Shown: positions 40,443 through 56,684 of the stretch, piece by piece
Position numbering within the stretch: the stretch's first letter is position 1
Layout: each line of letters begins with the position of its first letter
From: a virus
IMG/VR virus record: IMGVR_UViG_3300020202_000064
Location: 1-64,000 of that record
DNA: 64,000 bases
Direction: 5' to 3' (one strand)
The notes under the pieces: model-generated
What the model saw: the letters and a program-made list of their open reading frames with translations, nothing else
The model's database searches: none
What the model was told of the DNA's origin: nothing
Position numbers and translations under genes: made by a program

Positions 40443-40445
40443 AAA

Positions 40446-40559
40446 CTAAGCCCTTTTTTTTGGATGCTACCATTACATTAGAGCGGCTTCCAACTCCGCT
40501 TGCCGACTCGAACGGCTCTCCTTGTTTCGTAGACAATTTTTGTTTGCTGTATGGGCTAA
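40446..40559 (-). ncRNA. ACAGC-stem RNA 1 (Y-RNA-like, permuted tRNA core)
   Basis: TTAGCCC-ATACAGCAA...GGGCTTAG enclosing T arm GCCGTTCGAGTCGGC, acceptor-like hairpin, D-like TAATGTAATGGTAGCAT. Confidence 0.75.
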
Positions 40560-40565
40560 TGGAAG

Positions 40566-40643
40566 TGGAGTTGACGGAGGCACTCGAAACCTCATGATAT
40601 CCTCTTTACAAGAGAGGTGCTTTTCCTCTTAAGCCACGTCAAC
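40566..40643 (-). tRNA. tRNA-Thr(TGT)
   Basis: Loop CTTGTAA, CCA. Confidence 0.88.
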
Positions 40644-40702
40644 GTTAAATCGATACAAAATTTCGTGTAATCTAATTCGAGCCTAAATAAAGGATTCGAA
40701 TT

Positions 40703-41101
40703 ATGAATATTAAAGAACAATGTCTGAAACTAAAATCAGAAAATCCAAAAATGTATTATAAAGAAATCGCAAAGATTGTCGGGTGTCAACCAAGCACTGT
40801 TTGCTATCATTTGAATGAAGACACGAGAAAAAATTACCGACATCGCCAATCTAAAAACAGAAGAATTAATAATAATGCATTAAAAAGTGTTAACGGCGGT
40901 AAATGTAAACTTTGTGGTTACTGCAAATCTTTGTCCGCTCTGCATTTTCATCATTTAGACCCAGATACGAAAACCGATGAAGTTTCAAGAATATTGAGAA
41001 CGCGCGGAAAATTAGCAGCCACGAACGAAGCAAAAAAATGTATTCTTATTTGTGCTAATTGTCATCATGAAATCCACGACGGATTAATAAAATTAGAATG
41101 A
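40703..41101 (+). CDS. HTH-HNH endonuclease
   Basis: CKLCG, LHFHHLDP, CILICANCH. Confidence 0.85.
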   Translation: MNIKEQCLKLKSENPKMYYKEIAKIVGCQPSTVCYHLNEDTRKNYRHRQSKNRRINNNALKSVNGGKCKLCGYCKSLSALHFHHLDPDTKTDEVSRILRTRGKLAATNEAKKCILICANCHHEIHDGLIKLE

Positions 41102-41103
41102 AA

Positions 41104-41178
41104 TGGAGTCCCGTATCGAACTTGAATCGATTTATTCGCGTTACGAATGCGAGGCATCACCATCAATGCTTACAGGAC
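41104..41178 (-). tRNA. tRNA-Thr(CGT)
   Basis: Loop TTCGTAA, U73 as in Thr(TGT), CCA. Confidence 0.78.
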
Positions 41179-41339
41179 GAAAAATTATTTTCTTTGGCGA
41201 TTTCTAAATATGATTTTTCGCCGGGTTTTTGCTGTATAAAATAATCCAACACCCTTGCTATTTCAAGGGGGTCTGTTCCTCGCTCAACCGAAGTAATTGT
41301 TAACTCCAATAGTTCCTTTTTCTTTTGATTATTCATAGA

Positions 41340-41416
41340 TGGCGCGACCAGCCCGATTCGAACGGGCACTAAAGCTACTTAGAAGGAAGCTTGACTTTCC
41401 AATTGCCGATGGTCGC
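41340..41416 (-). tRNA. tRNA-Arg(TCT)
   Basis: Loop CTTCTAA, CCA. Confidence 0.88.
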
Positions 41417-41653
41417 AAAAATTATTTATCGATTCTACGGATGGATTGATGTTCCTTAACGCGCATTTTGTCAAGTTCTTTCTGACTATAAATTTTGCGC
41501 ACTGCTACACCAACATATTTCTTTGGCAGAAAACCAATTGCACAATGTAAACCGATGCGAAATGGAATCTCCGCAATCAACCTTTCGCTTTCTCGCTTGG
41601 CGGCGCTTTCCTCAAATTCGCCAATATTATCATCTACCATCCAATTTTTCATA

Positions 41654-41748
41654 TGGTGGTTCCTGTCAGAATCGAACTGACGCTCGGCGGCAATCTACCG
41701 CATACAGGTTATAAATCTGTCGGTGCTCTCCAATTACACTAAGGAACC
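41654..41748 (-). tRNA. tRNA-Ile(TAT), long variable arm
   Basis: Loop TTTATAA; variable hairpin GCGGTAGATTGCCGC; CCA. Confidence 0.8.
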
Positions 41749-41869
41749 AAGCGAACCGTTTGCTTGAAGGCACTTTTACCCATCTACCCACAAACTTAAT
41801 TTTGCACCACGGTTCGACAGACAACTCACCCTCACATAACAGGTATTCTTCTGTGAGGGGACTAGCAAA

Positions 41870-41947
41870 TGGCATCCACGGTGAGCCTTGAACTCACATA
41901 TGACCAACTTGAGAGGTTGGTGACTTTGCCAATTTGTCAACGTGGAC
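41870..41947 (-). tRNA. tRNA-Glu(CTC)
   Basis: Loop CTCTCAA, CCA. Confidence 0.88.
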
Positions 41948-41959
41948 AAAAGGTCCAAC

Positions 41960-42223
41960 TTAATGAACTGATTTATCAGAAGGATTTTCTATACTTCTTT
42001 GAATTACTTTTGCACTTAGTAAGGTTAGCAAATAACTACCTAACGTTGCACCTACACTCGCGGGTATTTCCACAAGCGCGCCCGTCTTAATACAGGCGAA
42101 TAACCAGCCGCCGCAGATAGTTGTAAGAATCAGCATCGTACCAAGGAACACAACCAAACGTGTCGTGGAAGGGGTGTCAGGGGCTTCTTCCAAAGCCTTG
42201 CCTAACCAAGTAAAAAAGTTCAT
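41960..42223 (-). CDS. Small two-TM membrane protein (possibly holin-like)
   Basis: PSTTRL plus two hydrophobic helices; GTGTAA motif 8 nt upstream. Confidence 0.5.
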   Translation of the reverse strand: MNFFTWLGKALEEAPDTPSTTRLVVFLGTMLILTTICGGWLFACIKTGALVEIPASVGATLGSYLLTLLSAKVIQRSIENPSDKSVH

Positions 42224-42258
42224 AATCTGAATTACACGTAAGAATCAATCATTTAGCA

Positions 42259-42341
42259 TGGTGGTCAAGGTGGGACTCGAACCCACAAGCCGAAGCATAT
42301 GCACCTCAAGCATACGTGTATGCCAATTTCACCACATGACC
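42259..42341 (-). tRNA. tRNA-Leu(GAG)
   Basis: Loop TTGAGGT, class II, CCA. Confidence 0.92.
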
Positions 42342-42699
42342 ATAACGGATTTTAACGTAGAAAGCCGCAAACGCACAATATCATGTCCAATCCCAAGCGT
42401 TATCTCTTGGTTCTCTGGGTAAATTAACTTCTTCCTCGTCTATATTTCCCGCGCGTAGGTTTTTTAGTTCCTGATTGCGCTCGGCGCGACGGGCGCGCTC
42501 TCTCATTTGTTTGTGCCATTTTGGCGATTTATCCCAACGCTTTTTATCGCGAGTAAATTTCCATTCTGGCGTATTGTCAACAAGCGGTTCTCCCCACATC
42601 ATTATAGTGGGGCGCTTGCCACGTAGTTTCCTATCGTCAAAACGGCGTGTTCTGCTCATAGGAAGAAGCCTTTCGGCTGAGGTTTGTATTGGTAGAAGA

Positions 42700-42779
42700 T
42701 GGGGTATACGACGGGGCTTAAACCCGCAGGGACCAAGCTTCACAGGCTTGTGCGTCTAATCAATTTCGCCACGTATACC
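42700..42779 (-). tRNA. tRNA-His(GTG) with encoded G-1
   Basis: Loop CTGTGAA; G-1:C73 pair; CCA. Confidence 0.88.
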
Positions 42780-42783
42780 ATAA

Positions 42784-42911
42784 CTAAGTTCATTTTTATA
42801 TTGTCGCCTAAACCAGACTAGGCTACTTCCGCATATTGTAAATGGTGCGGAAGGTGGGATTTGAACGCCACGTATAACAATTTCCATGAAATTGGATGCT
42901 GTTAGAACTTA
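42784..42911 (-). ncRNA. ACAGC-stem RNA 2 (permuted tRNA core)
   Basis: TAAGTTC-TAACAGCAT...GAACTTAG enclosing T arm, CTTCCGC-ACCA, linker, GCGGAAG, D arm. Confidence 0.8.
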
Positions 42912-43717
42912 AATTGGTTTTTGATTTTATTATAAATCGTCATTTTTCTTCGTGTAATCTTTTATGGCAGGACCATAAGGATTCGAAAAAGATGATTAAA
43001 CTATTTACTGATAAAGAATTTAATTCGGCTAAATCGCGGGATTTACTACCTCTTAAATGCGAAAAATGTGGAAAAACTTTCCACAAGGCAAAACACAGAA
43101 TACAGGATGCCTTATCGACCAAGACGAAGCTTTTCTGGAAATTTTGTTCTAAACGATGCAGTGATGAACACTTCGAAACATCCATAGAAGTCGAATGTTG
43201 CCAGTGCAAACGGAAAACATTCAAAACCCCGTCAGAGATAAAAAAAGTAAGACGCCCATTTTGTTCACAATCTTGTGCAGCTTTATATAACAACACGCAT
43301 AAAACACACGGAACATCTCGTTCAAAACTAGAAAAATGGTTGGAATCTAAATTAATAACTGAATATCCCGAATTAGAATTTCATTTCTCAAGAAAAGATG
43401 CTATCAACGGTGAACTAGATATTTATATTCCATCATTAAAATTGGCATTTGAGTTAAACGGGATTTTCCATTATGAACCAATTTATGGTAAGGAACAATT
43501 AATCAAAATGCAGAACAACGATAAACGAAAGTTCCAAGCGTGTTTAGAAAATGGAATAGAACTATGTATTATAGATACAACGTCTCAAAAGTATTTTAAA
43601 GAAAATACCTCTTTAAAATTTCTTAATATCATCCGAGATATAATCGAAAGAAAAATGGCAGGACATGTAGGTGAGGAACCCACTTCTTCGCGTTTGGAGT
43701 GCGAGGCACATACCTAA
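42896..43717 (+). CDS. Zn-ribbon-containing endonuclease, PD-(D/E)XK-like (probable start 42992)
   Basis: CxxC/FCS repeats; ELDIYIP, AFELNG, HY. Confidence 0.75.
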   Translation: MLLELKLVFDFIINRHFSSCNLLWQDHKDSKKMIKLFTDKEFNSAKSRDLLPLKCEKCGKTFHKAKHRIQDALSTKTKLFWKFCSKRCSDEHFETSIEVECCQCKRKTFKTPSEIKKVRRPFCSQSCAALYNNTHKTHGTSRSKLEKWLESKLITEYPELEFHFSRKDAINGELDIYIPSLKLAFELNGIFHYEPIYGKEQLIKMQNNDKRKFQACLENGIELCIIDTTSQKYFKENTSLKFLNIIRDIIERKMAGHVGEEPTSSRLECEAHT

Positions 43718-43731
43718 TATACCAATGTCCT
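43656..43731 (-). tRNA. tRNA-Trp(CCA), atypical T loop
   Basis: Loop CTCCAAA; T loop TTCCTCA; G73, CCA. Confidence 0.8.
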
Positions 43732-43902
43732 ATAAAGTCATTTCTGACCATCTAAATATTTCTTGAACGCATCTTGATTTTTAATCGCCGCCCGAAGTTC
43801 TGGCGTCGTATCATCAATATACAACGGACATTGTACTGGTTCGTGATAACAGCCTTCGGCCAATATTTCTTTTATTTCTTCAATAGTCGTCTGATTCATA
43901 AT

Positions 43903-43979
43903 TGGTGCAAATGGAAGAAATCGAATCCTCAGTATAACTACGTTCGAAGCGTAGGTGGCTCTCCTGTGCCAGCATTTGC
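43903..43979 (-). tRNA. tRNA-Arg(TCG)
   Basis: Loop CTTCGAA, short D arm, CCA. Confidence 0.8.
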
Positions 43980-44010
43980 GTGTTTTAATTTTAGCTACGT
44001 ATGTATTAAA

Positions 44011-44087
44011 TGGTGGGGGCCGAGCGAATTGAACGCTCACATCAAGATTTTCAATCTAGCATGCTCACCAGTTTACATCAAACCCCC
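44011..44087 (-). tRNA. tRNA-Phe(GAA)
   Basis: Loop TTGAAAA, CCA. Confidence 0.88.
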
Positions 44088-44540
44088 AAAGGCTAGCAGC
44101 CACCCCACAACTTCGGGTATGTGACACCTGAAAGTCGGTTTCGCGCTATGCGCTAATCAAACACCGAACCTTTCCTTTATTGTAGTCCTTGTGGACTATC
44201 CTTTCCTTTTCCTTACCTACGGTATTTAACCATAGGTTATGCGCGGTTACCAGCCGCGACTTTATATCCCGGTAACCAGCCGGGAAATTTGTGAAATTTA
44301 TACATAAACGGCGGATTTAATTCGTCATTCATTCTGTTACAGTGTTCTCTGAGTAATCTTTTTAAATATACAGACTTAATCCATTGGTCTATAAACTCGC
44401 GCGCTTTATCTTGTTTATTCATGAATATACTGGTGTGTCTTTTCGTTGGTCTCCGACTAAAATCAATATTGCTTTGACCGCCTCAGTGAAGATATTCTAT
44501 TCATCGGGTTTTCTGCGACCCACTCTCCTTTTATATTCAT

Positions 44541-44617
44541 TGGTAGTCGCAATGGGATTCGAACCCATACTGAAAAGTTTTTAAGACTTTTGCTTCTGCC
44601 GGTTGAGCGATGCGACC
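44541..44617 (-). tRNA. tRNA-Leu(TAA), short variable arm
   Basis: Loop CTTAAAA, CCA. Confidence 0.85.
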
Positions 44618-44622
44618 ATAGC

Positions 44623-45186
44623 TTATTTCAGAGGGAATGCAACTGTATTTGTTGGGGCGCTATTGCCAGAAGAATTATAAGCGAACACACGATACCAATA
44701 TGTACCAACGCCTATATTCGTATCAATAAATGTATTTATGTTAGCTGAAGTCGTACCTATAACAACAAAATTTTCCCCATCATTACTACGCTCTATTTTA
44801 AAACCAGTTTCGTTGCTGGAATTATCACTCCAAGTTAATGTTACTGACGATGGGACGCTTCTAACACTCACACTTTCTAATTTTAAATATGTATATAAAC
44901 TGTCAATTTTTCGCAATACTGTTTGTAAATCTGTATTTGTATTATTTTGATTTTCCTTCAAAGCCGCTAACTCTTGCAATGCCAAATCTCTCTCTTGTTG
45001 AGCTTGCGCTACAAGCTTTTCTTGATACACAGCATATAAATGCCATGCTATAATCTGAGAATTTTTTGCATCCCACGCGGATTGTGCTGGATAAGCGGGG
45101 CGAGGAACGGGGGTAATAGATGTAACTTGAGCTAATAAAACACTCGCCAAAGCAACAACGAAGAAACTAATAAGAATTTTTTTCAT
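44623..45186 (-). CDS. Secreted protein with coiled coil and fibronectin type III domain
   Basis: Signal peptide MKKILISFFVVALASVLLA; VTLTWSDNSSNETGFKIERS...YWYRVFAYN; the longer track start overlaps tRNA-Gly. Confidence 0.8.
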   Translation of the reverse strand: MKKILISFFVVALASVLLAQVTSITPVPRPAYPAQSAWDAKNSQIIAWHLYAVYQEKLVAQAQQERDLALQELAALKENQNNTNTDLQTVLRKIDSLYTYLKLESVSVRSVPSSVTLTWSDNSSNETGFKIERSNDGENFVVIGTTSANINTFIDTNIGVGTYWYRVFAYNSSGNSAPTNTVAFPLK

Positions 45187-45195
45187 AAAACAACT

Positions 45196-45271
45196 TGGTG
45201 CGATATAGGAGATTTGAACTCCTACCCCATGCTTGGAAGGCGCGTGTGCTGCCATTAAACACTAATATCGC
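45196..45271 (-). tRNA. tRNA-Gly(TCC)
   Basis: Loop CTTCCAA, CCA. Confidence 0.88.
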
Positions 45272-45585
45272 AAAATGGGTATTAGCCCAAGATAAATCCG
45301 AGTACGAAAGCAACTACTGTCGAAATTAACGTCACTTTCATGCTAACCTGCTTGGCAAGAAACTGCTGAGTTTCCTCTTTGGCTTCATGCTTTAAGCGCG
45401 CTTTTGCCTCTTCAACGTGTTCTTTTAAATCGCTCATAGTATTGTTATGTTCAATCTAAATTACACTTTAAACTAGGGGCTTTACTCTAGCCCGACGGTA
45501 CAACAATCCACTGTTGCCATTGCGCCGCTTTTACATTAGCGGCAGAAAGCCCGCACATTTAAGCTGGCGGGGACTAACTATAGTC

Positions 45586-45661
45586 TGGTGGGCATGGCAG
45601 GAATCGAACCCGCAATCTTCACCGTGTAAAAGTGCCGCGTTAACCGTTACGCTACACGCCC
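45586..45661 (-). tRNA. tRNA-Val(TAC)
   Basis: Loop TTTACAC, CCA. Confidence 0.9.
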
Positions 45662-45662
45662 A

Positions 45663-46029
45663 TTTTCTATTCCAGTTTAGCCGCGATTCTGGTTTATCTC
45701 TACATTTCTCTAATCGGCTTTCGCCAATTCCCACCGTCAATAGATGGGTGCATCAACCCGGCCTCATCGATAAGCACTAATCTCAGCCTGTTTGACTTGC
45801 TACTACCATGAGGTATTAACGAATACGTGATAGGCTATGGTTTGTAAGCCATGCCGAGTATTCTCCCTATCGGTTGCTTTGTAGTCGCGAACTTCCTCTG
45901 ACTTATGGAATGCGGGGTTCCTCTCTTTCGAGTTTGGCATACCGCATCTTACGTCCCTTTACGCACCATTCTCAGGCCGTGGCCTGATTAAAGGTTTCAC
46001 CTTTCGTCAGCGTAGAGTCGAATAGAAAT
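45663..46029 (-). ncRNA. rnpB: RNase P RNA (atypical)
   Basis: P1 TTTCTATTC/GAATAGAAA, P2 CTCTAC/GTAGAG, GAGGAAGTTCGCGA pairing with CAGAATCGCGGCTAA (P4), GCAAGTCAAACAGG, GAGAAATG. Confidence 0.8.
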
Positions 46030-46080
46030 TTTGCACCCCGGACGTAACAATCTATAGTCATTGGAATCCGGCCCGTCTCC

Positions 46081-46566
46081 CTATAGTGTTTGTGCGGCCA
46101 CCCTCGACCGTAAAGTAAATTCATAATGAAGCATCGTTGAACGGGACAATAACCCCGGCGACACTTCCCAAGCTTTCGTATTATTTAGTAAAGAAATTCC
46201 TGCGTGTTCAAACGCCGCATAAATCAATTCAGAGCAAAACCACTTGTCTTTCGAACCGCCCGATTCAGATTCACGAGAAAGGAAACGAAGTACCATGGTA
46301 ATGTCGTACTTCTTACCCACTTGAGCATAAAGGAACTGGCTGATTTTACGGAATTGTTCCGACGTAACTTCAGTCGAATACATATCAATATATTCGTCCT
46401 TCTTAAATTTGTACTTCTGGAATTTACGAACACCGTAAAAACGGGTGGCCTCAATTACGTCTTTTTCCAATGATATACTTACATGTGAATATTTACTACG
46501 AGTTTGCCAACGAATAATTTTATCAAAAATAGAGTTAGCTGAATGTAATCCAATGTAGATTTTCAT
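46081..46566 (-). CDS. Permuted papain-like (YaeF/YiiX) enzyme
   Basis: SKYSHV, GKKYD, WFCSEL, SP. Confidence 0.85.
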   Translation of the reverse strand: MKIYIGLHSANSIFDKIIRWQTRSKYSHVSISLEKDVIEATRFYGVRKFQKYKFKKDEYIDMYSTEVTSEQFRKISQFLYAQVGKKYDITMVLRFLSRESESGGSKDKWFCSELIYAAFEHAGISLLNNTKAWEVSPGLLSRSTMLHYEFTLRSRVAAQTL

Positions 46567-46586
46567 ACATTAAGTTACACTAAATT

Positions 46587-46664
46587 TGGCGCGGGAGGTG
46601 GGCTTCGAACCCACAACCTTGAAATTTAGAGTTTCCTGCTCTGAACCAGTTGAGCTACTCCCGC
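46587..46664 (-). tRNA. Amber suppressor tRNA(CTA)
   Basis: Canonical cloverleaf, loop CTCTAAA, G73, CCA. Confidence 0.88.
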
Positions 46665-46723
46665 AATAAGCCCGAATAAATCGGGCACTAAATTACTATT
46701 TCTACGATGTATCCTATTTCAAA

Positions 46724-47002
46724 TCAATCACCCCCTTTCTTGCCGCTCGCGGCTCGAATATGGGCAGTGCCATCCGAAATATCTATATCAACATTTTTAA
46801 ATCTCAAACTTCCCTTAGTATGTTGATTATCAGGGGTTTCTTTTGTGGAAAAGGGAACTTCGCAATCCACATGGTTAACGTAGTACGTTATACCTTTTGT
46901 CTTAATTACCCACGGGGCAATTCGACTATCGAACAAGTGTGCCTTATTAAAATGGAACACTGCTTCTTTACAATTCTGAACCTAATGTTCTTCCTATTTC
47001 AT
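46724..47002 (-). CDS. Small phage protein; ATG at 47002 with in-frame TAG at codons 3 and 7 (stop-free part 46724-46960)
   Basis: ATG AAA TAG GAA GAA CAT TAG GTT...GTG TTC CAT in a single frame; GTGTAA motif upstream. Confidence 0.55.
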
Positions 47003-47081
47003 GTCAGTATATATTACACTTATTTTTGTTGTTCGTGCAAACTAAAATCTTCAATTTTACATCAAACCGAAGGTTTGAAAA

Positions 47082-47157
47082 TGGAGGCAGCGCCGTGAAT
47101 TTAACAACGGTTCTTCCAACTTTGCGGTCGGACGGATTAGCGTCTTCCTCCGCTGCC
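47082..47157 (-). tRNA. Degenerate tRNA-Cys(GCA)-like
   Basis: Acceptor GGCAGCG/CGCTGCC, U73, CCA; 6-nt anticodon loop and aberrant D/T loops. Confidence 0.5.
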
Positions 47158-47307
47158 ATATTTATAACCTAGCAGCCCCACTGCAACCCGTATAGCATAA
47201 CAATTTAGGTTAGAACTGTTCGTATGCCGATTACTTCATGATTAGGAGCAACCCTATTATTTTTCATACTACACCCGATGGTGCCACCGATTTTTGTCAT
47301 TATAAAT

Positions 47308-47383
47308 TGGTGTGCCGTGCGAGACTCGAACTCGCGATATCCAACTTGGCAAGCTGGCGCAATAGCCACTATGCGAACGACAC
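47308..47383 (-). tRNA. tRNA-Gly(GCC)
   Basis: Loop TTGCCAA, CCA. Confidence 0.9.
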
Positions 47384-47432
47384 AGAAGAACGCCTCTTAA
47401 TCGGAGACGAGAATCGAAATTCTTTATTTTTA

Positions 47433-47507
47433 TGGTAGCACACGGCGGCGTTTGAATCCGCTGCTCCAACTTATGAGGATGGCGAGTTACCTATACTCTA
47501 CGGTGCA
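47433..47507 (-). tRNA. tRNA-Met(CAT), irregular acceptor stem
   Basis: Loop CTCATAA, 1:72 mismatch, CCA. Confidence 0.65.
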
Positions 47508-47548
47508 ATAAGGGGAATCGATATTGTTAGGTATCTATTCCCATCGTT

Positions 47549-47914
47549 TCAACCCTGCATCTTTTTCAACTTATCTTCTAACTGCTTTAATTGATATTCC
47601 AACTGATTCACTTTACCAGCATATTGCATGTTCTGGAATTGAACCAGAGCAATTTGTTTTTCAAGCTGTAATTTCTCGTTCAATAATTCATTATATTTAT
47701 CAGATACATCAGGATTTGCTTTTAACTTTGAAATCTCCAACTCCAATGAAGTAATTTTTTCTTTAAGAACATCTGATGCAGAAAGTTTTAAGAAAAAACT
47801 ATTAATAAATTCCAACTTGGTCTTTAAAATCGAAATTTCAGTATCAAGAGATTCAATTGTCGCTTTGAGTTGAAGGTTATTCGCTAATAAGGCGGTGCGT
47901 GTGACATAGGTCAT
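47549..47914 (-). CDS. Coiled-coil protein
   Basis: Heptad Leu pattern; GTGTAA motif 8 nt upstream. Confidence 0.55.
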   Translation of the reverse strand: MTYVTRTALLANNLQLKATIESLDTEISILKTKLEFINSFFLKLSASDVLKEKITSLELEISKLKANPDVSDKYNELLNEKLQLEKQIALVQFQNMQYAGKVNQLEYQLKQLEDKLKKMQG

Positions 47915-47937
47915 ATATATAGTTACACCAAAAATAA

Positions 47938-48015
47938 TGGTGGCTACATAGGGATTCGAACCCTAAAAATTCACGTTCTAAGCGCGACACGTCTAGCCAG
48001 TTGCGTCATGTAGCC
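47938..48015 (-). tRNA. tRNA-Leu(TAG), short variable arm
   Basis: Loop CTTAGAA, CCA. Confidence 0.85.
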
Positions 48016-48194
48016 TAATAGCACGCACAAGTTTTACGTTGTGCGGCTTTGTTGTCTTACTTATCGCGAGGACGGTATTCGTTGTCATAAATGACAATAA
48101 GACCGAGCATCACGAGGACAGAGAAGAAGGCAATCATCTTGCTTTCCTTTCTTGTTTTAGGTGCCGTCGTCCCGTAGGATAGGCGGCAGATAAA

Positions 48195-48271
48195 TGGCTG
48201 TCTTGTTTGAATTTGAATCAAAATATTTCGGGTCAGAGCCGAATGTAATAACCAAGTTATACGACAAGACA
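48195..48271 (-). tRNA. tRNA-Gln(CTG)
   Basis: Loop CTCTGAC, U1-A72, G73. Confidence 0.85.
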
Positions 48272-48276
48272 ATAAC

Positions 48277-48401
48277 GATGCCCAAATCCATCAACGCTGG
48301 ATAAACGCGAATTACTTTCATTCCACCTTTCGGCGCGGGCGTAATCGACCATTTTTACTTCACGTAGTAGTTGTTTTTATTTGATTTGCTGTGTGGGCGT
48401 C
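48277..48401 (-). ncRNA. ACAGC-stem RNA 3 (divergent stem)
   Basis: GACGCCC-ACACAGCAA...GGGCATC. Confidence 0.55.
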
Positions 48402-48439
48402 TACGAATCTACGATTCTATTATAAATCGAAGATTTAAT

Positions 48440-48530
48440 TGGCAGTCCTCCCCGGACTCGAACCGGGACATCTATTTCTAGATATGACAGCTTCAAAGGC
48501 TGTTGTGCTAACCAATTACACTAGAGGACA
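48440..48530 (-). tRNA. tRNA-Gln(TTG), long variable arm
   Basis: Loop CTTTGAA; variable hairpin ATCTAGAAATAGAT; CCA. Confidence 0.85.
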
Positions 48531-48578
48531 ATAAAATCGGTCATGATTTGCGTGTAATTAACATGAGTAAGTTAATTT

Positions 48579-49031
48579 ATGAGTAAATCATCAGAGGCCG
48601 TTAAAAAATGGAGAAAAGCAACTAAACAACGAATAATTGATGCTATGGGCAAACAGTGTCAATGTTGTGGGTATAATAGATGTAACGAGTGTTTAGATTT
48701 ACATCATTTGGACCCAAACGAAAAGGAACTAAGTTTTGGAGCGATAAGGGCGAACCCAATCGCTTGGTCGAAAATTGTAGAAGAGTTAAGAAAATGTATA
48801 TTAGTGTGTAGAAATTGCCATGGAGAAATACATAATAACAATCTTCCAATTCCAAACAACTATTGTAAATTTGACGAATCCTATTCAGAATACAAAATTG
48901 TATCCGAAGAACTTGCGTCTAAGTGTCCAAAATGCGGGGACCAAAAATTAACAATACATAAATTCTGTTCCCAGAATTGTGCAAAACGTGGACGTAAATT
49001 GGCTATACAGGTTGGAGCCGCCCCAACATAA
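48579..49031 (+). CDS. HNH endonuclease
   Basis: CQCCG, LDLHHLDP, CILVCRNCH. Confidence 0.85.
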   Translation: MSKSSEAVKKWRKATKQRIIDAMGKQCQCCGYNRCNECLDLHHLDPNEKELSFGAIRANPIAWSKIVEELRKCILVCRNCHGEIHNNNLPIPNNYCKFDESYSEYKIVSEELASKCPKCGDQKLTIHKFCSQNCAKRGRKLAIQVGAAPT

Positions 49032-49093
49032 GATTTTATTCTTCACTCGCTTAACAGGCGAAGCCAGCTAACTTAGCTATCTGGGTCTGCATA
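49000..49093 (-). tRNA. Atypical tRNA-Asn(GTT)
   Basis: Acceptor TATGCAG/CTGTATA, loop CTGTTAA, enlarged D and variable arms, T loop GGCGGCT. Confidence 0.55.
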
Positions 49094-49098
49094 ATAGA

Positions 49099-49172
49099 TG
49101 GCTCCGGAAATTCGGGTCGAACGAATGATTTTTGGGTAACAGCCAAACGTGATGCCACTTCACTATACCGGA
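49099..49172 (-). tRNA. tRNA-Asn(GTT)
   Basis: Loop CTGTTAC, G73, CCA. Confidence 0.88.
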
Positions 49173-49178
49173 ATAAAA

Positions 49179-49257
49179 CTAAGTTCCTTGTGCCTTTTAT
49201 TAACCGGTGGCAAAGCCCGTCTCCTGATTATGTCATAGATATTGCTGTATGAACTTA
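49179..49257 (-). ncRNA. ACAGC-stem RNA 4
   Basis: TAAGTTC-ATACAGCAA...GAACTTAG. Confidence 0.72.
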
Positions 49258-49260
49258 AAA

Positions 49261-49399
49261 GTGGAACGTATGGGATTCGAACCCATATCGACGAACTTTA
49301 CGCCCGTCTCGTAAGATTATCTTATATATTCTTTTACCGGTGCGAATATATCACTTCATCAAACTACTTGTGGAGCTTTGACCATTAAGCTAACGTCCC
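49261..49399 (-). ncRNA. tRNA-like RNA with Ala identity and large insert replacing the anticodon arm
   Basis: Acceptor GGGACGT/ACGTTCC-A (G3:U70), canonical D and T arms, about 88 nt between them. Confidence 0.65.
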
Positions 49400-49435
49400 A
49401 TAAATCGTAGATTTACATAAACCTACGGTTTAATA

Positions 49436-49582
49436 CTAAGCGCAACGCATTTACAGCGCGCGACTGAATGGCTTTTGTATTAGGCACCATCATTTCCTCG
49501 TGCAACCCGCCTCACTTCATCTTTCGATGGTGATTGGATGTTTGCACATCATCGATAAGTTTATTATCGCTGTATGCGCTTA
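49436..49582 (-). ncRNA. ACAGC-stem RNA 5
   Basis: TAAGCGC-ATACAGCGA...GCGCTTAG. Confidence 0.72.
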
Positions 49583-49586
49583 AAAC

Positions 49587-49728
49587 CTAAGTATAACGAA
49601 AAGTTTAGGCTCTTTTCGCGTTCCTAAAAAGCATGGAGAAGCTTTTCAATCTAACAGTTATGGAATGTCAGCCGGTGCCGCCCCGAAGGGTAGCGTCTTG
49701 TTAAGATAAGGATTGCTGTATATACTTA
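49587..49728 (-). ncRNA. ACAGC-stem RNA 6
   Basis: TAAGTAT-ATACAGCAA...ATACTTAG. Confidence 0.72.
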
Positions 49729-49820
49729 TGGCGGTGAGGGCGAGAATCGAACTCGCGGGGCAACTTTCGTCACCCTTTTGCTTTCCAAGCAAATGCATTA
49801 GGCCGCTCTGCCACCTCACC
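49729..49820 (-). tRNA. tRNA-Ser(GGA)
   Basis: Loop TTGGAAA, class II, CCA. Confidence 0.92.
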
Positions 49821-50028
49821 AAGATTACGCAATTTCTGCGAATCGCTTTTTAAAATAATTACTGGTCTCGTCCGGGGTGTGCCGCAAGAACAGTTGCTCG
49901 TCAATCTCATCAAACGCTCTGAAATCACCATTAGATGCGGCAATCAACGCGTCGCTAAGTTCTGGCGAACATTCGAACCTAAAGCCGAATGAATCCCAGA
50001 TTTCTTTAAATCTTTCGTATGTCATAAT

Positions 50029-50116
50029 TGGTGGTCCCGGTGGGATTCGAACCCACAGTGAGCTTACGCTTTCGGCTTAAGAGGCCGGACTAATCAACCG
50101 TTCTAGGCACGGAACC
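50029..50116 (-). tRNA. tRNA-Lys(CTT), extended variable arm
   Basis: Loop CTCTTAA, variable AGCGTAAGCT, CCA. Confidence 0.82.
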
Positions 50117-50120
50117 AAAT

Positions 50121-50470
50121 TGGTGGAGATGGAGGGCTTCGATTCCCTCGTGTCCGATACTTCGTATTTCCATTCTTGTTACATGCTTAGAATCACTTGA
50201 TAATATCGTTTTCGGTTTGATTCTACCAAACGACATTTGACGGTTATATAATCAGCTTCTATCAACCAGTCAATTTTAAAGCTGATTCCCGATGATGACG
50301 AGTGGCCCAATTTATCGGCGGTCAATTGGAACTCGGTTAGCCGCAATTAAGCAGCGTAAGCATAAACTTCTGTTTTCTTAGCGTTTATTTTGTGATACGT
50401 TTTACGACGTGGCATCATTGTCGGCATGGAATGTAAACCTACGTATTGGATAGAATCCAAATACATCCCC
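50121..50470 (-). ncRNA. ssrA: tmRNA
   Basis: GGGGATG.../...CATCTCCACCA with G3:U70; tag reading frame AKKTEVYAYAA* after ATAAAC. Confidence 0.92.
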
Positions 50471-50481
50471 AAAAGAAATAT

Positions 50482-50559
50482 TGGTGCGCCCCGAGGGAGT
50501 TGAACCCTCACGATGGTCCGCTTAAAAGGCGGCTGCTCGTCCACTGTAGCTTGAGGCGC
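50482..50559 (-). tRNA. tRNA-Lys(TTT)
   Basis: Loop CTTTTAA, CCA. Confidence 0.88.
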
Positions 50560-50568
50560 ATATTAAAA

Positions 50569-50643
50569 TGGAGTCCCTAGCGGCTTACGAGACCGCGTAT
50601 GAATCTTTTGCAGAGATTTGCATTTCCTCTTTGCTATAGGGAC
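50569..50643 (-). tRNA. tRNA-Cys(GCA)
   Basis: Loop CTGCAAA, U73, atypical T loop, CCA. Confidence 0.8.
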
Positions 50644-50651
50644 ATAAAAAT

Positions 50652-50754
50652 TGGCGGAAGAGGCAAGATTCGAACTCGCACGCGCTATGGTTTACATATC
50701 GCCCTCGCATTTCAAGTGCGCTGCCGCTAGGCCATATCCTCGGCTTACTCTTCC
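50652..50754 (-). tRNA. tRNA-Ser(TGA), enlarged D and variable arms
   Basis: Loop CTTGAAA, G73, CCA. Confidence 0.8.
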
Positions 50755-50756
50755 AT

Positions 50757-50815
50757 CTAAGCGGGCGCAATTTTCCCTTTCGGGATGGCGATTTATATTT
50801 TGCTGTATCCGCTTG
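50757..50815 (-). ncRNA. ACAGC-stem RNA 7
   Basis: CAAGCGG-ATACAGCAA...CCGCTTAG. Confidence 0.7.
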
Positions 50816-50872
50816 TTGCTTTAATTGCGCGAAATCTTAAAACCTTCGGTTTTATTATAAATCGAAGATTTA

Positions 50873-50949
50873 TGGTGGCCGAGGGTGGGTTTGAACCACC
50901 AACCGTTCGTCTATCAAACGAATGCACTAGCCAATTGTGCTACACGGCC
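50873..50949 (-). tRNA. tRNA-Ile(GAT)
   Basis: Loop TTGATAG, CCA. Confidence 0.88.
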
Positions 50950-50954
50950 ATTAT

Positions 50955-51047
50955 CTAAGCTCTATTATTGTGCGGGCATCGAATCCCGCTCAATTCGTGT
51001 TTTTGAAACGAATTTTTATCCATTTAAGGTTTTGCTGTGAGAGCTTA
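50955..51047 (-). ncRNA. ACAGC-stem RNA 8
   Basis: TAAGCTC-TCACAGCAA...GAGCTTAG; T-arm-like GCGGGATTCGATGCCCGC. Confidence 0.72.
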
Positions 51048-51087
51048 TTGTGGAGCTTACTCCACCGTTCCAGCAAAGCTGGAAATA

Positions 51088-51144
51088 CTAAGCGCATTTT
51101 GTTTTTCATTAATCATTGAATTTTTAATTCGCTGTTAGCGCTTA
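51088..51144 (-). ncRNA. ACAGC-stem RNA 9
   Basis: TAAGCGC-TAACAGCGA...GCGCTTAG. Confidence 0.7.
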
Positions 51145-51327
51145 TAAGGAAACGAAAACTTGTTATGTTTTTGGCTTCTGATTCGAAGCATATTTGACGA
51201 AACGTTTATAATTTTTTAAATCGCGGCTAGCGTCTGTGCGCCGGGAATATGGACCGTAATCTAAATCCCCCCATTGATTTTTAAACCAAAACTTTCCATC
51301 TCGCTTGAAAATTTTCATACTCTAAAA

Positions 51328-51402
51328 TGGCGGGACCAACGAGTGCTACCCTCGCTTCTGTATCGTGACAGGATACCGCTTTTGTTGATAAGCTATGGCC
51401 CC
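51328..51402 (-). tRNA. tRNA-Asp(GTC), atypical D and T loops
   Basis: Loop CTGTCAC, G73, CCA. Confidence 0.78.
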
Positions 51403-51509
51403 AAAATTACAAAGGTCACTCCATCCCTTTGAATGGCAGTTTATAAACGTGGAAACGTTTAAAGGTTTTATTTTTCGCCGGTTCTGCTTTACCCTGAACC
51501 TAGAGAAGT

Positions 51510-51588
51510 TGGTAGCGCGTGTGGGGCTCGAACCCACGCATGACCGATTTGAAAGACCGGTGACTTGAACCTGCTTGTCAAACGCGCC
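51510..51588 (-). tRNA. tRNA-Glu(TTC)
   Basis: Loop CTTTCAA, CCA. Confidence 0.88.
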
Positions 51589-51724
51589 GTAAAGATATTC
51601 TTTTGTATCCATCTATTCGGATTAACAACAACCCCAATGTTCGATACAAATAAACTACAATAACAGTTGTTTTTGATATATTATTATAGAAGAACTGAGG
51701 TGGAAATAAGTGTAATTACACTAT

Positions 51725-52300
51725 ATGTCCACTAAAATATTATCTGAATTTTCTCGATGTGACTCCTTTGGAACGCAGCGTAAATACGTTTCTTACCATT
51801 GTACTCGATGCGGTGTCGAACATTCCAAACCAAAACGTAACTTTTGGTTAGATAGACCCAACTTCTGTTCCGTTAACTGTGCAAGAGAACATCAAAAAAT
51901 TTTGCATTCATTTGAAGCTGAGTGCGCATGGTGCGCAAATAAATTCCACAAAAAGATATCAACAAAGGGAAATAGTCGTTCCGGTTTATATTTTTGTTCC
52001 AGACTATGCAAAGACAAGGCTCAAAGCTTGGAAGGTGGTATAAAGGAAATACAGCCAAATCATTACGGAGAAATTAAAAAGAATTATCGCGAAACTGCAT
52101 TTAAAAATCTGCCAGCACGCTGTAATCGATGCGACTTTGCTGCTTACCCAGAGATACTAGAGGTTCATCACAAAGACCATAATCACCATAATAATACCGT
52201 AGATAATTTGGAAATTTTATGTCCAAACTGCCACGAAATTCATCACTTCGAAACGAAATCGGGTAAATATGCCAAAAGTGGTGGACTGGAAGGGGATTGA
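51725..52300 (+). CDS. Zn-ribbon HNH endonuclease
   Basis: FCS repeats; LEVHHKDHNHHNN...NLEILCPNCH. Confidence 0.85.
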   Translation: MSTKILSEFSRCDSFGTQRKYVSYHCTRCGVEHSKPKRNFWLDRPNFCSVNCAREHQKILHSFEAECAWCANKFHKKISTKGNSRSGLYFCSRLCKDKAQSLEGGIKEIQPNHYGEIKKNYRETAFKNLPARCNRCDFAAYPEILEVHHKDHNHHNNTVDNLEILCPNCHEIHHFETKSGKYAKSGGLEGD

Positions 52301-52354
52301 ACCCTCCACACGAACATTGCAAATGTCTGTCGCCTCCGAGGAACATGCCAGCCC
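52279..52354 (-). tRNA. tRNA-Ala(TGC)
   Basis: Loop TTTGCAA, G3:U70, CCA. Confidence 0.82.
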
Positions 52355-52357
52355 AAC

Positions 52358-52434
52358 TGGTGTTTCCACTCGGAATTGAACCAAGATGATACAGTTTAGG
52401 AAACTGTTGCCTTATCCAGTTAGGCGATGGAAAC
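52358..52434 (-). tRNA. tRNA-Arg(CCT)
   Basis: Loop TTCCTAA, CCA. Confidence 0.88.
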
Positions 52435-52435
52435 G

Positions 52436-52669
52436 TTAACTCAAAATTACACCCAAATCATTAACTTCGTTTTCAAACTCGTCGAACGTCGGTTCAATAT
52501 CTTCCATTGAGGCATCGATTCTTTTCTGCTTCATGCGACGATACTGAGTGTGACAGACTGCCAATCTTTGTTTATCATTACCATATTCCTTTTGCATCAA
52601 ATCCGAATCCATACAACGATTGATGAATTCAGTCTGTTTTTCATTGGACTTTGGTGTAGGCAGTGGCAT
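52436..52669 (-). CDS. Small conserved phage protein
   Basis: MPLPTP..E...FINRCM...EY....QRLAVC; GTGTAA motif 8 nt upstream. Confidence 0.65.
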   Translation of the reverse strand: MPLPTPKSNEKQTEFINRCMDSDLMQKEYGNDKQRLAVCHTQYRRMKQKRIDASMEDIEPTFDEFENEVNDLGVILS

Positions 52670-52699
52670 ACACTATATTACACTAAATGTCACCTAAAA

Positions 52700-52786
52700 T
52701 GGTGGTCCCGGTGGGATTTGAACCCACAGTGCCCGAAGGCGGCAGATTTACAGTCTGCTACGTCTACCAATTGACGCGTCGTGACC
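52700..52786 (-). tRNA. tRNA-Tyr(GTA)
   Basis: Loop CTGTAAA, class II, CCA. Confidence 0.9.
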
Positions 52787-52944
52787 ATCATACGAACTAC
52801 GGTACATATGATTTATCATCACCCCAATGCCTTGGGCCGATTTTTTGCGAGGTTGTACATTCCTCCGTTCGTATTCTGTATTAGGGATGCCTCCCTTTTA
52901 ACATATGAGAGATAGGTGAGTTAATTACACTCACTTATCTTTGA

Positions 52945-53038
52945 CTAAGTATATTTTTATCACCCCATAAATTTGAAATGGCGGGGTGTGAAGGAATTGA
53001 ACCTTCTGTTTCCAGAAAAGTCATGCTGTTAATACTTA
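52945..53038 (-). ncRNA. ACAGC-stem RNA 10 (permuted T arm plus acceptor)
   Basis: TAAGTAT-TAACAGCAT...ATACTTAG enclosing GAAGGTTCAATTCCTTC, CACCCC-GCCA, linker, GGGGTG. Confidence 0.78.
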
Positions 53039-53039
53039 A

Positions 53040-53116
53040 TGGTGCGGTCAGAGGGACTCGAACCCCCACTAAAAGATTCGTAATCTTTCGTGCTAATTCC
53101 ATTACACTATGTCCGC
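53040..53116 (-). tRNA. tRNA-Arg(ACG)
   Basis: Loop TTACGAA, CCA. Confidence 0.9.
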
Positions 53117-53166
53117 ATATCGACGGGCCTACCCGCCGTGGTTTAACCAATTTTTAGGAAAAATAA

Positions 53167-53289
53167 CTAAGTTCGTTTTTTTCGTTGTTCTGCTTTAAAC
53201 TAACTTGCTGAAATTGAAATTGGTGGCAAGTGAAGTGCGCTACGCTCCATCTCCGTCTTATGTGATGATTTAACCGCTGTTAGAACTTA
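53167..53289 (-). ncRNA. ACAGC-stem RNA 11 (permuted tRNA core)
   Basis: TAAGTTC-TAACAGCGG...GAACTTAG enclosing degenerate T arm, ACTTGCC-ACCA, linker, AGCAAGT, D-like arm. Confidence 0.75.
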
Positions 53290-56647: not shown

Positions 56648-56684
56648 CTAAGTAATTTTTAATTGTTAATGCTGACATTACTTA
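56648..56684 (-). promoter_or_regulatory. Minimal ACAGC-stem copy in the 5' UTR of the Ro60-like gene
   Basis: TAAGTAA-TGTCAGCAT...TTACTTAG-TTT-ATG. Confidence 0.65.

What the first reader, a model, noticed from the sequence alone, without database searches (positions are those of the whole stretch)
40446..53289. Circularly permuted tRNA mimics with internal CCA inside four ACAGC RNAs
Copies at 42784, 53167, 52945 and 40446 contain tRNA parts in the order T arm, 3' acceptor strand, linker, 5' acceptor strand, D arm (52945 lacks the D arm). Example: GTGGCGTTCAAATCCCAC-CTTCCGC-ACCA-tttacaatat-GCGGAAG-TAGCCTAGTCTGGTTTAGGC. The handle stem replaces the anticodon arm, as in bacterial YrlA tRNA mimics. 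Three copies keep an NCCA before the linker, so RNase P/Z cleavage could open a chargeable acceptor end. Copy 40446 also has an anticodon-like hairpin TTGT-CTACGAA-ACAA. Inference: decoys for host anticodon nucleases or tRNA-sensing defences, or substrates for cut-and-ligate maturation by the phage RNA ligases.
Basis: partly seen in the sequence, partly recalled or inferred. Interest (0 to 1): 0.75.

Follow-up and report, generated by a model that had tools for sequence, protein, structure and literature searches.

The report
Permuted tRNA-mimic RNAs in phage
Four small RNA genes in a phage tRNA cluster are tRNA look-alikes with rearranged parts, most likely partner RNAs of a Ro60-shaped phage protein; three carry an internal CCA that could let the cell's tRNA-processing enzymes cut them open.

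Summary
The main points of the observation hold. Four small-RNA genes lie on the minus strand inside a phage tRNA array. All share a 7-bp 'handle' plus NNACAGC and carry tRNA parts in permuted order. Covariance models built only from other phages' elements hit two copies as full T arm, closed acceptor stem and D arm bodies: 42784-42911 (48 bits with handle, 22.6 body alone) and 40446-40559 (36; 25.6). Copy 52945-53038 has a T arm and acceptor stem only. Copy 53167-53289 keeps only the acceptor stem.

Three copies have NCCA plus a 10-12-nt AU-rich spacer that resembles this phage's own inter-tRNA junctions; all 31 tRNAs encode CCA. Related phages carry the same bodies either permuted, or in normal tRNA order with the handle as a closed hairpin replacing the anticodon loop. 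'Circular permutation' is therefore literal. The DUF2828/vWA gene 1.8 kb upstream is predicted to fold like Ro60.

Best reading: YrlA-like tRNA-mimic Y RNAs of a divergent phage Ro-like particle. RNase P opening of the acceptor loop is plausible (precedent: M. smegmatis YrlA) but untested. The decoy and cut-and-ligate readings lack support. The scan met this RNA family before in other phages; the encoded internal CCA is what is new here.

The parts
42784..42911 (-). Handle RNA with a complete permuted tRNA-like body and an internal ACCA
   Evidence: z -4.65; R1 48.4 bits; R2 22.6 bits; ARAGORN calls the re-permuted sequence a tRNA at -ps90
42898..42911 (-). Handle 5' strand TAAGTTC plus the TAACAGC motif of copy 42911
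42854..42871 (-). T arm GTGG(C)G-TTCAAAT-CCCAC
42843..42853 (-). 3' acceptor strand CTTCCGC followed by ACCA
42833..42842 (-). AU-rich spacer TTTACAATAT. It starts with TTT and ends with AT before G+1, like this phage's tRNA junctions.
42806..42832 (-). 5' acceptor strand GCGGAAG, TA, and D arm GCCTA-GTCTGGTT-TAGGC
42784..42791 (-). Handle 3' strand GAACTTA plus the conserved G. tRNA-His starts 5 nt downstream.
52945..53038 (-). Handle RNA with T arm (52990-53006), acceptor stem ACACCCC/GGGGTGA (52983-52989 and 52960-52966), GCCA (52979-52982) and a 12-nt spacer (52967-52978). It has no D arm.
   Evidence: 29.3 bits; z -3.1; T arm only
53167..53289 (-). Handle RNA with acceptor stem ACTTGCC/AGCAAGT (53225-53231 and 53203-53209), ACCA (53221-53224) and an 11-nt spacer. 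The T and D positions are degenerate.
   Evidence: 20.6 bits, T stem mismatched; z -0.8; 10 bits
40446..40559 (-). Handle RNA with an anticodon-like hairpin (40522-40536), T arm (40502-40516), a 5-bp acceptor stem closed by a 9-nt loop (40482-40500, no CCA) and D arm ATGT-AATGGTA-GCAT (40464-40478)
   Evidence: 36.3 bits; 25.6 bits, best hit in the window. Same body type in L008 and Felix O1.
55109..56644 (-). Gene for a 511-aa DUF2828 + DUF7788 (vWA) protein with a predicted Ro60-like fold; the presumed protein partner
56648..56684 (-). Minimal handle hairpin TAAGTAA-TGTCAGC...TTACTTA-G, ending 3 nt before the ATG of the Ro-like gene
   Evidence: sequence; R1 10.8 bits, weak

Best explanation
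These are genes for small non-coding RNAs of a phage Y-RNA-like family. Each RNA has two modules.

(1) A terminal 'handle': a 7-bp stem whose sequence covaries, a conserved NNACAGC on the 5' side and a G after the 3' strand. I infer that this is the binding site of the Ro60-shaped DUF2828/vWA protein encoded 1.8 kb upstream on the same strand.

(2) A tRNA-derived body without an anticodon loop, made of T arm, acceptor stem and D arm. Here it is encoded in circularly permuted order, so the RNA ends lie in the handle and the acceptor stem is closed.

The RNAs are made as part of the tRNA polycistron. Maturation of the flanking tRNAs sets them free, because they begin 0-6 nt after an upstream tRNA's CCA and end 3-6 nt before the next tRNA.

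In three copies the acceptor stem is closed by NCCA plus a 10-12-nt AU-rich spacer that matches this phage's inter-tRNA junctions. I infer, at about even odds, that RNase P cuts 5' of the acceptor +1 base and that 3' exonucleases trim back to CCA. That would give a two-piece tRNA-like RNA held together by the acceptor and handle helices.

By analogy with Ro60-YrlA particles, the tRNA-like body would be a docking surface for a tRNA-binding partner, or a stable gate on the ring. The purpose would be RNA (probably tRNA) surveillance during infection.

Shown: sequence architecture, covariation, linkage to the gene, and the predicted fold of the protein.
Inferred: transcription, protein binding, cleavage and function.
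For: - Handle family: about 10 members on the tRNA strand with compensated stems TTC/GAA, TAT/ATA, CGC/GCG, CTC/GAG, CGG/CCG and CCC/GGG.
- Linkage to the gene: the same handle gives 112 hits on the protein's strand in 47 of 87 metagenomic loci, against 3 hits on the other strand.
- tRNA-like bodies: models trained only on other phages hit the window copies (R1; body-only R2, where the top two hits of the whole window are 40463-40522 and 42805-42876).
- Covariation: the acceptor stems of about 35 related elements are nearly all 6-7 of 7 paired, with about 20 different sequences.
- Both gene orders exist. Permuted forms are L083, L084, L086, L033, L046, L063, L116, L124, L008 and Felix O1. Normal-order forms, with the handle as a closed hairpin, gave 80 ARAGORN calls in 38 of 79 viral loci. 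The Rfam tRNA model scores them at 35-53 bits.
- Partner protein: DUF2828 + DUF7788. The AF2 model has pLDDT 83. The top 13 Foldseek hits are all Ro60. VIA Z is 13-17.6 over 370-420 residues for Ro60, against 10 or less for vWA-only proteins.
- Junction-like spacers: all 31 tRNAs encode CCA. 23 of 31 have T at -1, and TTT or ATT are the commonest trailers.
- A second CCA-encoding phage, L124 (20 of 21 tRNAs), also has two permuted copies with internal ACCA.
- Precedent: M. smegmatis YrlA has a 7-bp acceptor stem, is cut by RNase P in vivo and in vitro, and ends in CCA (PMC4201824).
Against: - There are no expression, end-mapping or binding data.
- The copies do not match Rfam YrlA (no hit at E<=10) and lack its GNCGAAN0-1G motif.
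- The partner protein has no Pfam TROVE match.
- Two of the four copies lie 12-14.5 kb from the protein gene.
- Copies 53167-53289 and 40446-40559 are not thermodynamically distinctive (z -0.8 and -0.4).
- Most permuted relatives close the acceptor stem with a 4-6-nt loop that cannot be opened. An open acceptor end is therefore not required by the family, and the CCA plus spacer could be a neutral relic of a tandem duplication.
Confidence: 0.72

Rival explanations
1. The NCCA plus spacer is only a historical scar. The permuted genes arose from two tandem normal-order copies (3' half of copy 1, encoded CCA, inter-gene spacer, 5' half of copy 2). The RNA works as one uncut piece, like Salmonella YrlA. 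This rival concerns only the cleavage step of the best explanation; the Y-RNA-like reading is the same in both.
For: - Tandem normal-order units that can be read either way exist (L073:6098-6334).
- Normal-order forms encode ACCA in the CCA-encoding phage L167.
- Most permuted relatives have sealed 4-6-nt loops (ACAAA, ACATT, GCTC, CTATG, TCAAT).
- A tandem-duplication origin is the standard model for permuted tRNA genes (PMC3978253).
Against: - NCCA is intact in 3 of 3 window copies with a 6-7-bp acceptor stem, and in 2 copies of the distant phage L124. Neutral loops should have decayed.
- The spacers keep the junction signature of TTT or ATT after CCA. Two end in AT and one in C at -1.
Confidence: 0.35
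2. The RNAs are decoys or sponges for host tRNA-targeting defences (anticodon nucleases, acceptor-end toxins, tRNA sensors).
For: - The phage carries about 33 tRNAs, a tmRNA and Rnl1- and Rnl2-type RNA ligases, which suggests pressure on the tRNA pool.
- Copy 40446-40559 has a 7-nt loop CUACGAA shaped like an Arg(ACG) anticodon loop.
Against: - Three of four copies have no anticodon loop at all.
- The one loop is not conserved in the nearest relative (CTACAAA in L008), and the normal-order forms lack it.
- The conserved feature across hundreds of phages is the handle next to a Ro60-like gene, not any nuclease target.
Confidence: 0.1
3. The copies are true permuted tRNA genes. The ends are ligated (phage Rnl1 or Rnl2), the acceptor loop is opened, and a decoding tRNA results, as in Cyanidioschyzon or Thermofilum.
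For: - The 3' half, CCA, spacer, 5' half layout matches that design, and T. pendens permuted tRNAs also encode CCA (PMC3978253).
- Two RNA ligases are encoded.
Against: - Joining the handle ends gives a 7-bp helix plus the ACAGC loop, not a 5-bp stem with a 7-nt anticodon loop.
- ARAGORN accepts the re-permuted sequences only by declaring a 38-46-nt 'intron'.
- The termini show no bulge-helix-bulge motif.
- Relatives seal the acceptor stem.
- The array already holds a near-complete tRNA set.
Confidence: 0.03
4. The tRNA parts are untranscribed or functionless debris of decayed neighbouring tRNA genes.
For: Copy 53167-53289 has lost recognisable T and D arms and is not better folded than shuffles.
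Against: - All four copies have perfect or near-perfect covarying handle stems.
- Acceptor stems are kept complementary (7/7, 6/7, 6/7, 5/5).
- The same architecture occurs in more than 20 other phage loci, including Felix O1.
- The top R2 hits in the window are exactly two of these copies.
Confidence: 0.04

Closest known systems
YrlA, the tRNA-mimic Y RNA of bacteria and mycobacteriophages bound by Ro60/Rsr (Chen et al. 2014, PMC4201824; Rfam RF02553)
   Same: - Ends paired in a terminal stem with a protein-binding motif on the 5' side.
- Then an optional V hairpin, T arm, acceptor-like stem closed by a loop, and D arm.
- Encoded on the same strand as a Ro60-type ring protein gene.
- The M. 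smegmatis version has a 7-bp acceptor stem, is cut by RNase P and carries CCA.
   Different: - The motif is NNACAGC, not GNCGAAN0-1G.
- There is no RF02553 hit in the window at E<=10, and only 25 of 69 bits in a relative.
- The partner is DUF2828/DUF7788, with no Pfam TROVE match.
- Many copies are scattered through a tRNA array.
- CCA is genome-encoded and followed by a 10-12-nt spacer.
- Relatives also encode the RNA in normal tRNA order.
Circularly permuted tRNA genes of Cyanidioschyzon merolae, green algae and Thermofilum pendens (review PMC3978253)
   Same: - The 3' half precedes the 5' half, with the acceptor ends joined by an intervening sequence.
- RNase P is expected to act on the acceptor loop.
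- CCA is encoded in T. pendens.
- A tandem-duplication origin has been proposed.
   Different: - Those genes yield decoding tRNAs through a bulge-helix-bulge cut and ligation into a circle.
- Here the termini form a plain 7-bp helix with a conserved ACAGC loop, and no anticodon arm can be regenerated.
Two-piece tmRNA from permuted ssrA genes (Keiler et al. 2000, cited in PMC3978253)
   Same: It is a bacterial precedent for a permuted tRNA-like gene whose internal CCA and spacer are processed to give a two-piece RNA with a working acceptor end. One relative phage (L059) itself encodes a cyano-type permuted tmRNA.
   Different: - The window copies have no match to any tmRNA model.
- I did not look for a tag reading frame or pseudoknots in them.
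- The window's own tmRNA (50121-50470) is the standard one-piece type.
Thermus phage phiLo Ro60 with Yrl1 and Yrl2 (PMC12135203; PDB 9KOP, 9L5Y)
   Same: It is a phage-encoded Ro60-fold ring protein with phage-encoded partner RNAs next to the gene. 9KOP and 9L5Y are among the best structural matches of the window protein.
   Different: - phiLo Yrl RNAs carry the CGAA motif.
- The phiLo paper never uses the term 'tRNA-like' in its text (0 occurrences).
- Sequence identity to the window protein is about 16%.

Membership tests
YrlA (Rfam RF02553; Chen 2014) | Module order: 5' motif, (V), T arm, closed acceptor stem, D arm, 3' end paired with the 5' end | tested here: met
   Fully met for 42784-42911 and 40446-40559. 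52945-53038 lacks the D arm. 53167-53289 keeps only the acceptor stem.
YrlA (Rfam RF02553; Chen 2014) | GNCGAAN0-1G motif near the 5' end | tested here: not met
   A regex on all four copies found none. NNACAGC occupies that place.
YrlA (Rfam RF02553; Chen 2014) | Score at or above the Rfam gathering threshold (69 bits) | tested here: not met
   No RF02553 hit in 36500-54000 at E<=10. The model is in the library and gives only 25 bits on a relative.
YrlA (Rfam RF02553; Chen 2014) | Encoded within about 4 kb of, and on the same strand as, a Ro60 (TROVE) gene | tested here: inconclusive
   All copies are on the same strand. Two lie 1.8-2.1 kb and two lie 12.2-14.6 kb downstream. The gene has no Pfam TROVE match but has a Ro60-like predicted fold.
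YrlA (Rfam RF02553; Chen 2014) | Bound by Ro60/Rsr; T and D loops modified by TruB and DusA | not testable with these tools
   This needs immunoprecipitation and modification mapping.
Circularly permuted tRNA genes (algal/archaeal type) | 3' half upstream of the 5' half, joined at the acceptor ends by an intervening sequence | tested here: met
   three copies also have an encoded NCCA.
Circularly permuted tRNA genes (algal/archaeal type) | Termini form a bulge-helix-bulge motif, and ligation restores an anticodon arm | tested here: not met
   The termini form a plain 7-bp helix. Re-permuted sequences need a 38-46-nt 'intron' to be called tRNA.
tRNA (Rfam RF00005) | Score of 29 bits or more against the tRNA model in genomic order | tested here: not met
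   No RF00005 hit at the four loci. Normal-order relatives do pass, at 35-53 bits.
Uncatalogued ACAGC-handle RNAs next to phage DUF2828 genes | 7-bp covarying terminal stem, NNNCAGC after the 5' strand, G after the 3' strand, same strand as the DUF2828 gene | tested here: met
   also Felix O1 FO1a.

The most novel reading that the evidence does not exclude
After RNase P opens the acceptor loop, the three NCCA-bearing copies become two-piece, anticodon-less tRNA-like RNAs. Their CCA end is aminoacylated or otherwise used by the translation or tRNA-repair machinery while the handle is docked on the Ro60-like ring. That would physically link a Ro-type surveillance particle to charged-tRNA biology.
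Probability: 0.08. Interest if true: 0.85.

Novelty: new variant of a known kind. Interest (0 to 1): 0.6.

Why it matters
Ro60-Y RNA particles are known from animals, about 5% of bacteria and a few phages. What the tRNA-like part of bacterial Y RNAs is for remains open.

These copies belong to a second, sequence-divergent Ro-like system. Its protein has homologs in 705 cultured-phage records, among them Felix O1, Listeria P100-type phages, Aeromonas Aeh1 and cluster L-type mycobacteriophages such as LeBron.

In this system the tRNA-like module occurs in nature in both circular permutations, with the acceptor end sealed, open, or (here) apparently cleavable. That natural series shows which features are constant: the handle, the T/D elbow and the acceptor helix. 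It also gives tractable models, such as Felix O1 on Salmonella, for asking what a tRNA mimic does on a Ro ring. As far as I found, these are also the first permuted tRNA-like genes with an encoded CCA seen in phages.

Tried and rejected
- Rfam at gathering and at E<=10 found nothing at the four loci and no RNase P RNA.
- Pfam TROVE and RtcB were not found in the 94-kb record.
- Megablast of the array against cultured phages gave only a 46-nt tRNA match.
- A profile search of the protein against PDB sequences gave no hit; only the fold comparison shows the Ro60 likeness.
- No parent tRNA was found in the array. The best match is a weak resemblance of 42911 to the CUA suppressor tRNA.
- A loose regex for T arm plus acceptor stem was too noisy to use.
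- MAFFT alignment of the NCCA-bearing copies with those of L124 showed no clear orthology.
- One R1 seed (L073) turned out to be two tandem normal-order units read across their junction. R2 was built without it.
- ARAGORN never calls re-permuted 53038 or 53289 as tRNA. It calls 40559 only as an odd low-threshold tRNA-Arg.

Full report
**Context.** The window is the first 64 kb of a 94-kb IMG/VR phage record estimated to be 46% complete. From 36.9 to 53.4 kb the minus strand carries 31 ARAGORN tRNAs, a few more Rfam-only tRNA-like hits and a one-piece tmRNA. All 31 tRNAs encode their 3' CCA. No cultured phage is close at the DNA level.

**The handle family.** About ten elements on the tRNA strand share one layout: 5'-UAAG-NNN-NN-ACAGC ... 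N'N'N'-CUUA-G-3'. The NNN triplet changes with full compensation: TTC/GAA three times, TAT/ATA twice, CGC/GCG twice, and CTC/GAG, CGG/CCG and CCC/GGG once each. The elements begin 0-6 nt after an upstream tRNA's CCA and end 3-6 nt before the next tRNA. Maturation of the neighbouring tRNAs would therefore release them. A minimal copy ends 3 nt before the start codon of ORF 55109-56644.

**The four copies.** I read each on the minus strand and mapped its parts.
- 42784-42911 has the handle, an extra hairpin, and a 5-bp helix (AUUGU/ACAAU) with a 5-nt variable loop in the anticodon-stem position. Then come a T arm with one bulged C, a perfect 7-bp acceptor stem CUUCCGC/GCGGAAG closed by ACCA plus UUUACAAUAU, then U8 A9 and a D arm with GG. 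Its MFE structure recovers all of these, with z = -4.65.
- 40446-40559 has a 4-bp hairpin with loop CUACGAA, a 5-nt variable loop, T arm GCCG-UUCGAGU-CGGC, a 5-bp acceptor stem closed by 9 nt without CCA, and D arm AUGU-AAUGGUA-GCAU.
- 52945-53038 has T arm GAAGG-UUCAAUU-CCUUC, acceptor stem ACACCCC/GGGGUGA (6 bp), GCCA plus a 12-nt spacer, and no D arm.
- 53167-53289 has acceptor stem ACUUGCC/AGCAAGU (6 bp) and ACCA plus an 11-nt spacer. The 17 nt in the T position lack a T-loop sequence, and the D position is a 3-bp hairpin without GG.

**Independent scoring.** I built covariance model R1 from six elements of other phages. One seed, L073, later proved to be a read across two tandem normal-order units. 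On the window with filters off, R1 gives:
- 48.4 bits for 42784-42911
- 36.3 bits for 40446-40559
- 29.3 bits for 52945-53038
- 20.6 bits for 53167-53289
- 20.7-27.4 bits for handle-only members

A body-only model, R2, was built from 12 permuted bodies of other phages without handles and scanned over the whole window on both strands. It ranks 40463-40522 (25.6 bits, E 2e-7) and 42805-42876 (22.6 bits, E 3e-6) first and second. These lie above a background of 17 bits or less from the T arms of real tRNAs. Copy 52945-53038 scores only as a T arm, and 53167-53289 is at noise. ARAGORN calls the re-permuted 42911 sequence an intron-containing tRNA at a 90% threshold. So two copies are solid tRNA mimics, one is a T arm plus acceptor minihelix, and one keeps only the acceptor helix.

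**Relatives and the meaning of 'permuted'.** The 511-aa ORF has thousands of homologs. I fetched 166 loci around them. The generalised handle (NAGNNNN-NNN-CAGC ... complement-G) occurs 112 times on the protein's strand in 47 of 87 metagenomic loci, against 3 times on the other strand. It is often in tandem just before or after the gene.

Permuted tRNA-like bodies inside handles recur in L083, L084, L086 (two), L033, L046, L063 (two), L070, L116, L124 (three), L008 and Salmonella phage Felix O1 FO1a. In addition, many phages encode the same bodies in normal tRNA order: 5' acceptor strand, D arm, then the handle as a closed hairpin (3' strand, G, 2-5 nt, 5' strand, NNNCAGC) in place of the anticodon loop, then T arm and 3' acceptor strand. 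ARAGORN calls these intron-containing tRNAs, with 80 calls in 38 of 79 viral loci. The Rfam tRNA model scores them at 35-53 bits.

The body type with D arm TRGTGTAAYGGTAGCAY is permuted in the window (40446-40559), L008 and Felix O1, but is in normal order in L047, L050, L052, L055 and L059. The two gene orders are therefore circular permutations of one RNA family. Across about 35 elements the acceptor stems are almost always 6-7 of 7 paired, with about 20 different sequences.

**The internal CCA.** Most permuted relatives seal the acceptor stem with 4-6 nt (ACAAA, ACATT, GCTC, CTATG, TCAAT). NCCA followed by a spacer appears in the three window copies and in two copies of L124 (ACCA-CAT and ACCA-AAACTA). 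L124 is a distant phage (44% protein identity) whose tRNAs also encode CCA (20 of 21). L086 has a loop ACCAA although its tRNAs do not encode CCA. Normal-order forms in the CCA-encoding phage L167 end in ACCA.

In the window the spacers begin with TTT, TTT and ATT. Two end in AT and one in C at -1. These match the commonest trailers and leaders of the 31 real tRNAs, 23 of which have T at -1. Two readings fit. In one, the loop is a working tRNA-type junction, cut by RNase P and trimmed to CCA. In the other, it is a scar of tandem duplication of CCA-encoding normal-order genes. Intact NCCA in two distant lineages favours some constraint, but I cannot decide between them.

RNase Z is unlikely, because CCA is encoded; this rests on established knowledge that CCA is an anti-determinant for RNase Z. 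The precedent for cleavage is M. smegmatis YrlA. It has a 7-bp acceptor stem, RNase P cuts it in vivo and in vitro, and its 5' half ends in CCA (PMC4201824). Permuted tRNA and tmRNA genes give further precedent (PMC3978253).

**The protein.** ORF 55109-56644 matches Pfam DUF2828 and DUF7788, with weak vWA hits and no TROVE match. An AlphaFold2 model built from a 41-sequence alignment has pLDDT 83. Its 13 best Foldseek matches in the PDB are all Ro60 proteins over about 500 columns. VIA-align gives Z of 13-17.6 over 370-420 residues for Ro60 entries, against 10 or less over 170 residues for vWA-only proteins.

Homologs occur in 705 cultured-phage records. In many mycobacteriophage records they are already annotated 'Ro-like RNA binding protein'. 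In Felix O1 the gene (gp42) heads a tRNA array that holds four handle RNAs, one of them a permuted tRNA mimic. The window also encodes Rnl1- and Rnl2-type RNA ligases but no RtcB.

**Comparison with known families.** The architecture and gene context are those of Ro60-YrlA particles. Membership in YrlA itself fails on three tested features: there is no GNCGAAN0-1G motif, no RF02553 hit, and the partner has no TROVE match by sequence. The copies are not algal or archaeal-type permuted tRNA genes either, because they have no bulge-helix-bulge motif and no recoverable anticodon arm. I found no paper in the held library that describes these RNAs. 'DUF2828' returns only unrelated plant and genome papers. 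Papers on phage Ro60 describe CGAA-motif Y RNAs.

Earlier reports of this scan reached the same general reading on other phages. What this window adds is the encoded NCCA plus junction-like spacer. My survey adds the widespread normal-order form.

**Verdict.** The YrlA analogy is right. Opening of the acceptor loop is plausible but unproven. The decoy and cut-and-ligate ideas are not supported.

Noticed in passing
window 49262-49399 (-): A normal-order tRNA-like RNA (Rfam tRNA 42.8 bits) with G3:U70 and A73. A branched insert of 46 nt (ARAGORN) to about 65 nt replaces the anticodon arm, and there is no CAGC handle. It is the only member of the array that ends in AC rather than CCA. A handle RNA (49179-49257) follows it directly.
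   Followed up: partly
window 56648-56684 (-): A minimal handle hairpin (TAAGTAA-TGTCAGC...TTACTTA-G) ends 3 nt before the ATG of the Ro-like gene and covers the ribosome-binding region. This suggests autoregulation.
   Followed up: partly
Rfam gave no RNase P match at gathering or at E<=10.
   Followed up: partly
window 46587-46664 (-): An amber-suppressor tRNA (anticodon CUA). Its acceptor and T arm are the nearest, though weak, match to the body of copy 42784-42911.
   Followed up: partly
window 5151-6233 (-) and 34584-35588 (-): Rnl1-type and Rnl2-type RNA ligase genes (Pfam PF09511 at 49 bits; PF09414 at 69 bits).
   Followed up: partly
L170 (Salmonella phage FO1a JF461087) 7713-7780, 7880-7938, 8334-8402, 8421-8546: Felix O1 has four ACAGC-handle RNAs in the tRNA array just after gp42 (the Ro-like protein). 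The last is a permuted tRNA mimic (R1 44.7 bits). None is annotated in the record.
   Followed up: partly
L059:9537-9788 and L059:2964-3215: A related phage encodes a cyano-type permuted (two-piece) tmRNA (RF01851, 115 bits) and a group I intron.
   Followed up: no
window 50656-50754 (-): A long-arm tRNA-like gene: Rfam tRNA-Sec at 30.7 bits (below threshold), and ARAGORN calls a tRNA with a 10-nt intron.
   Followed up: no
L059:11719-11889 and L052:11653-11786: In some phages a second, variant handle (TTAGATG-ATTCAGC...CATCTAG) lies directly after the 3' acceptor strand of a normal-order mimic, so units are packed end to end.
   Followed up: partly
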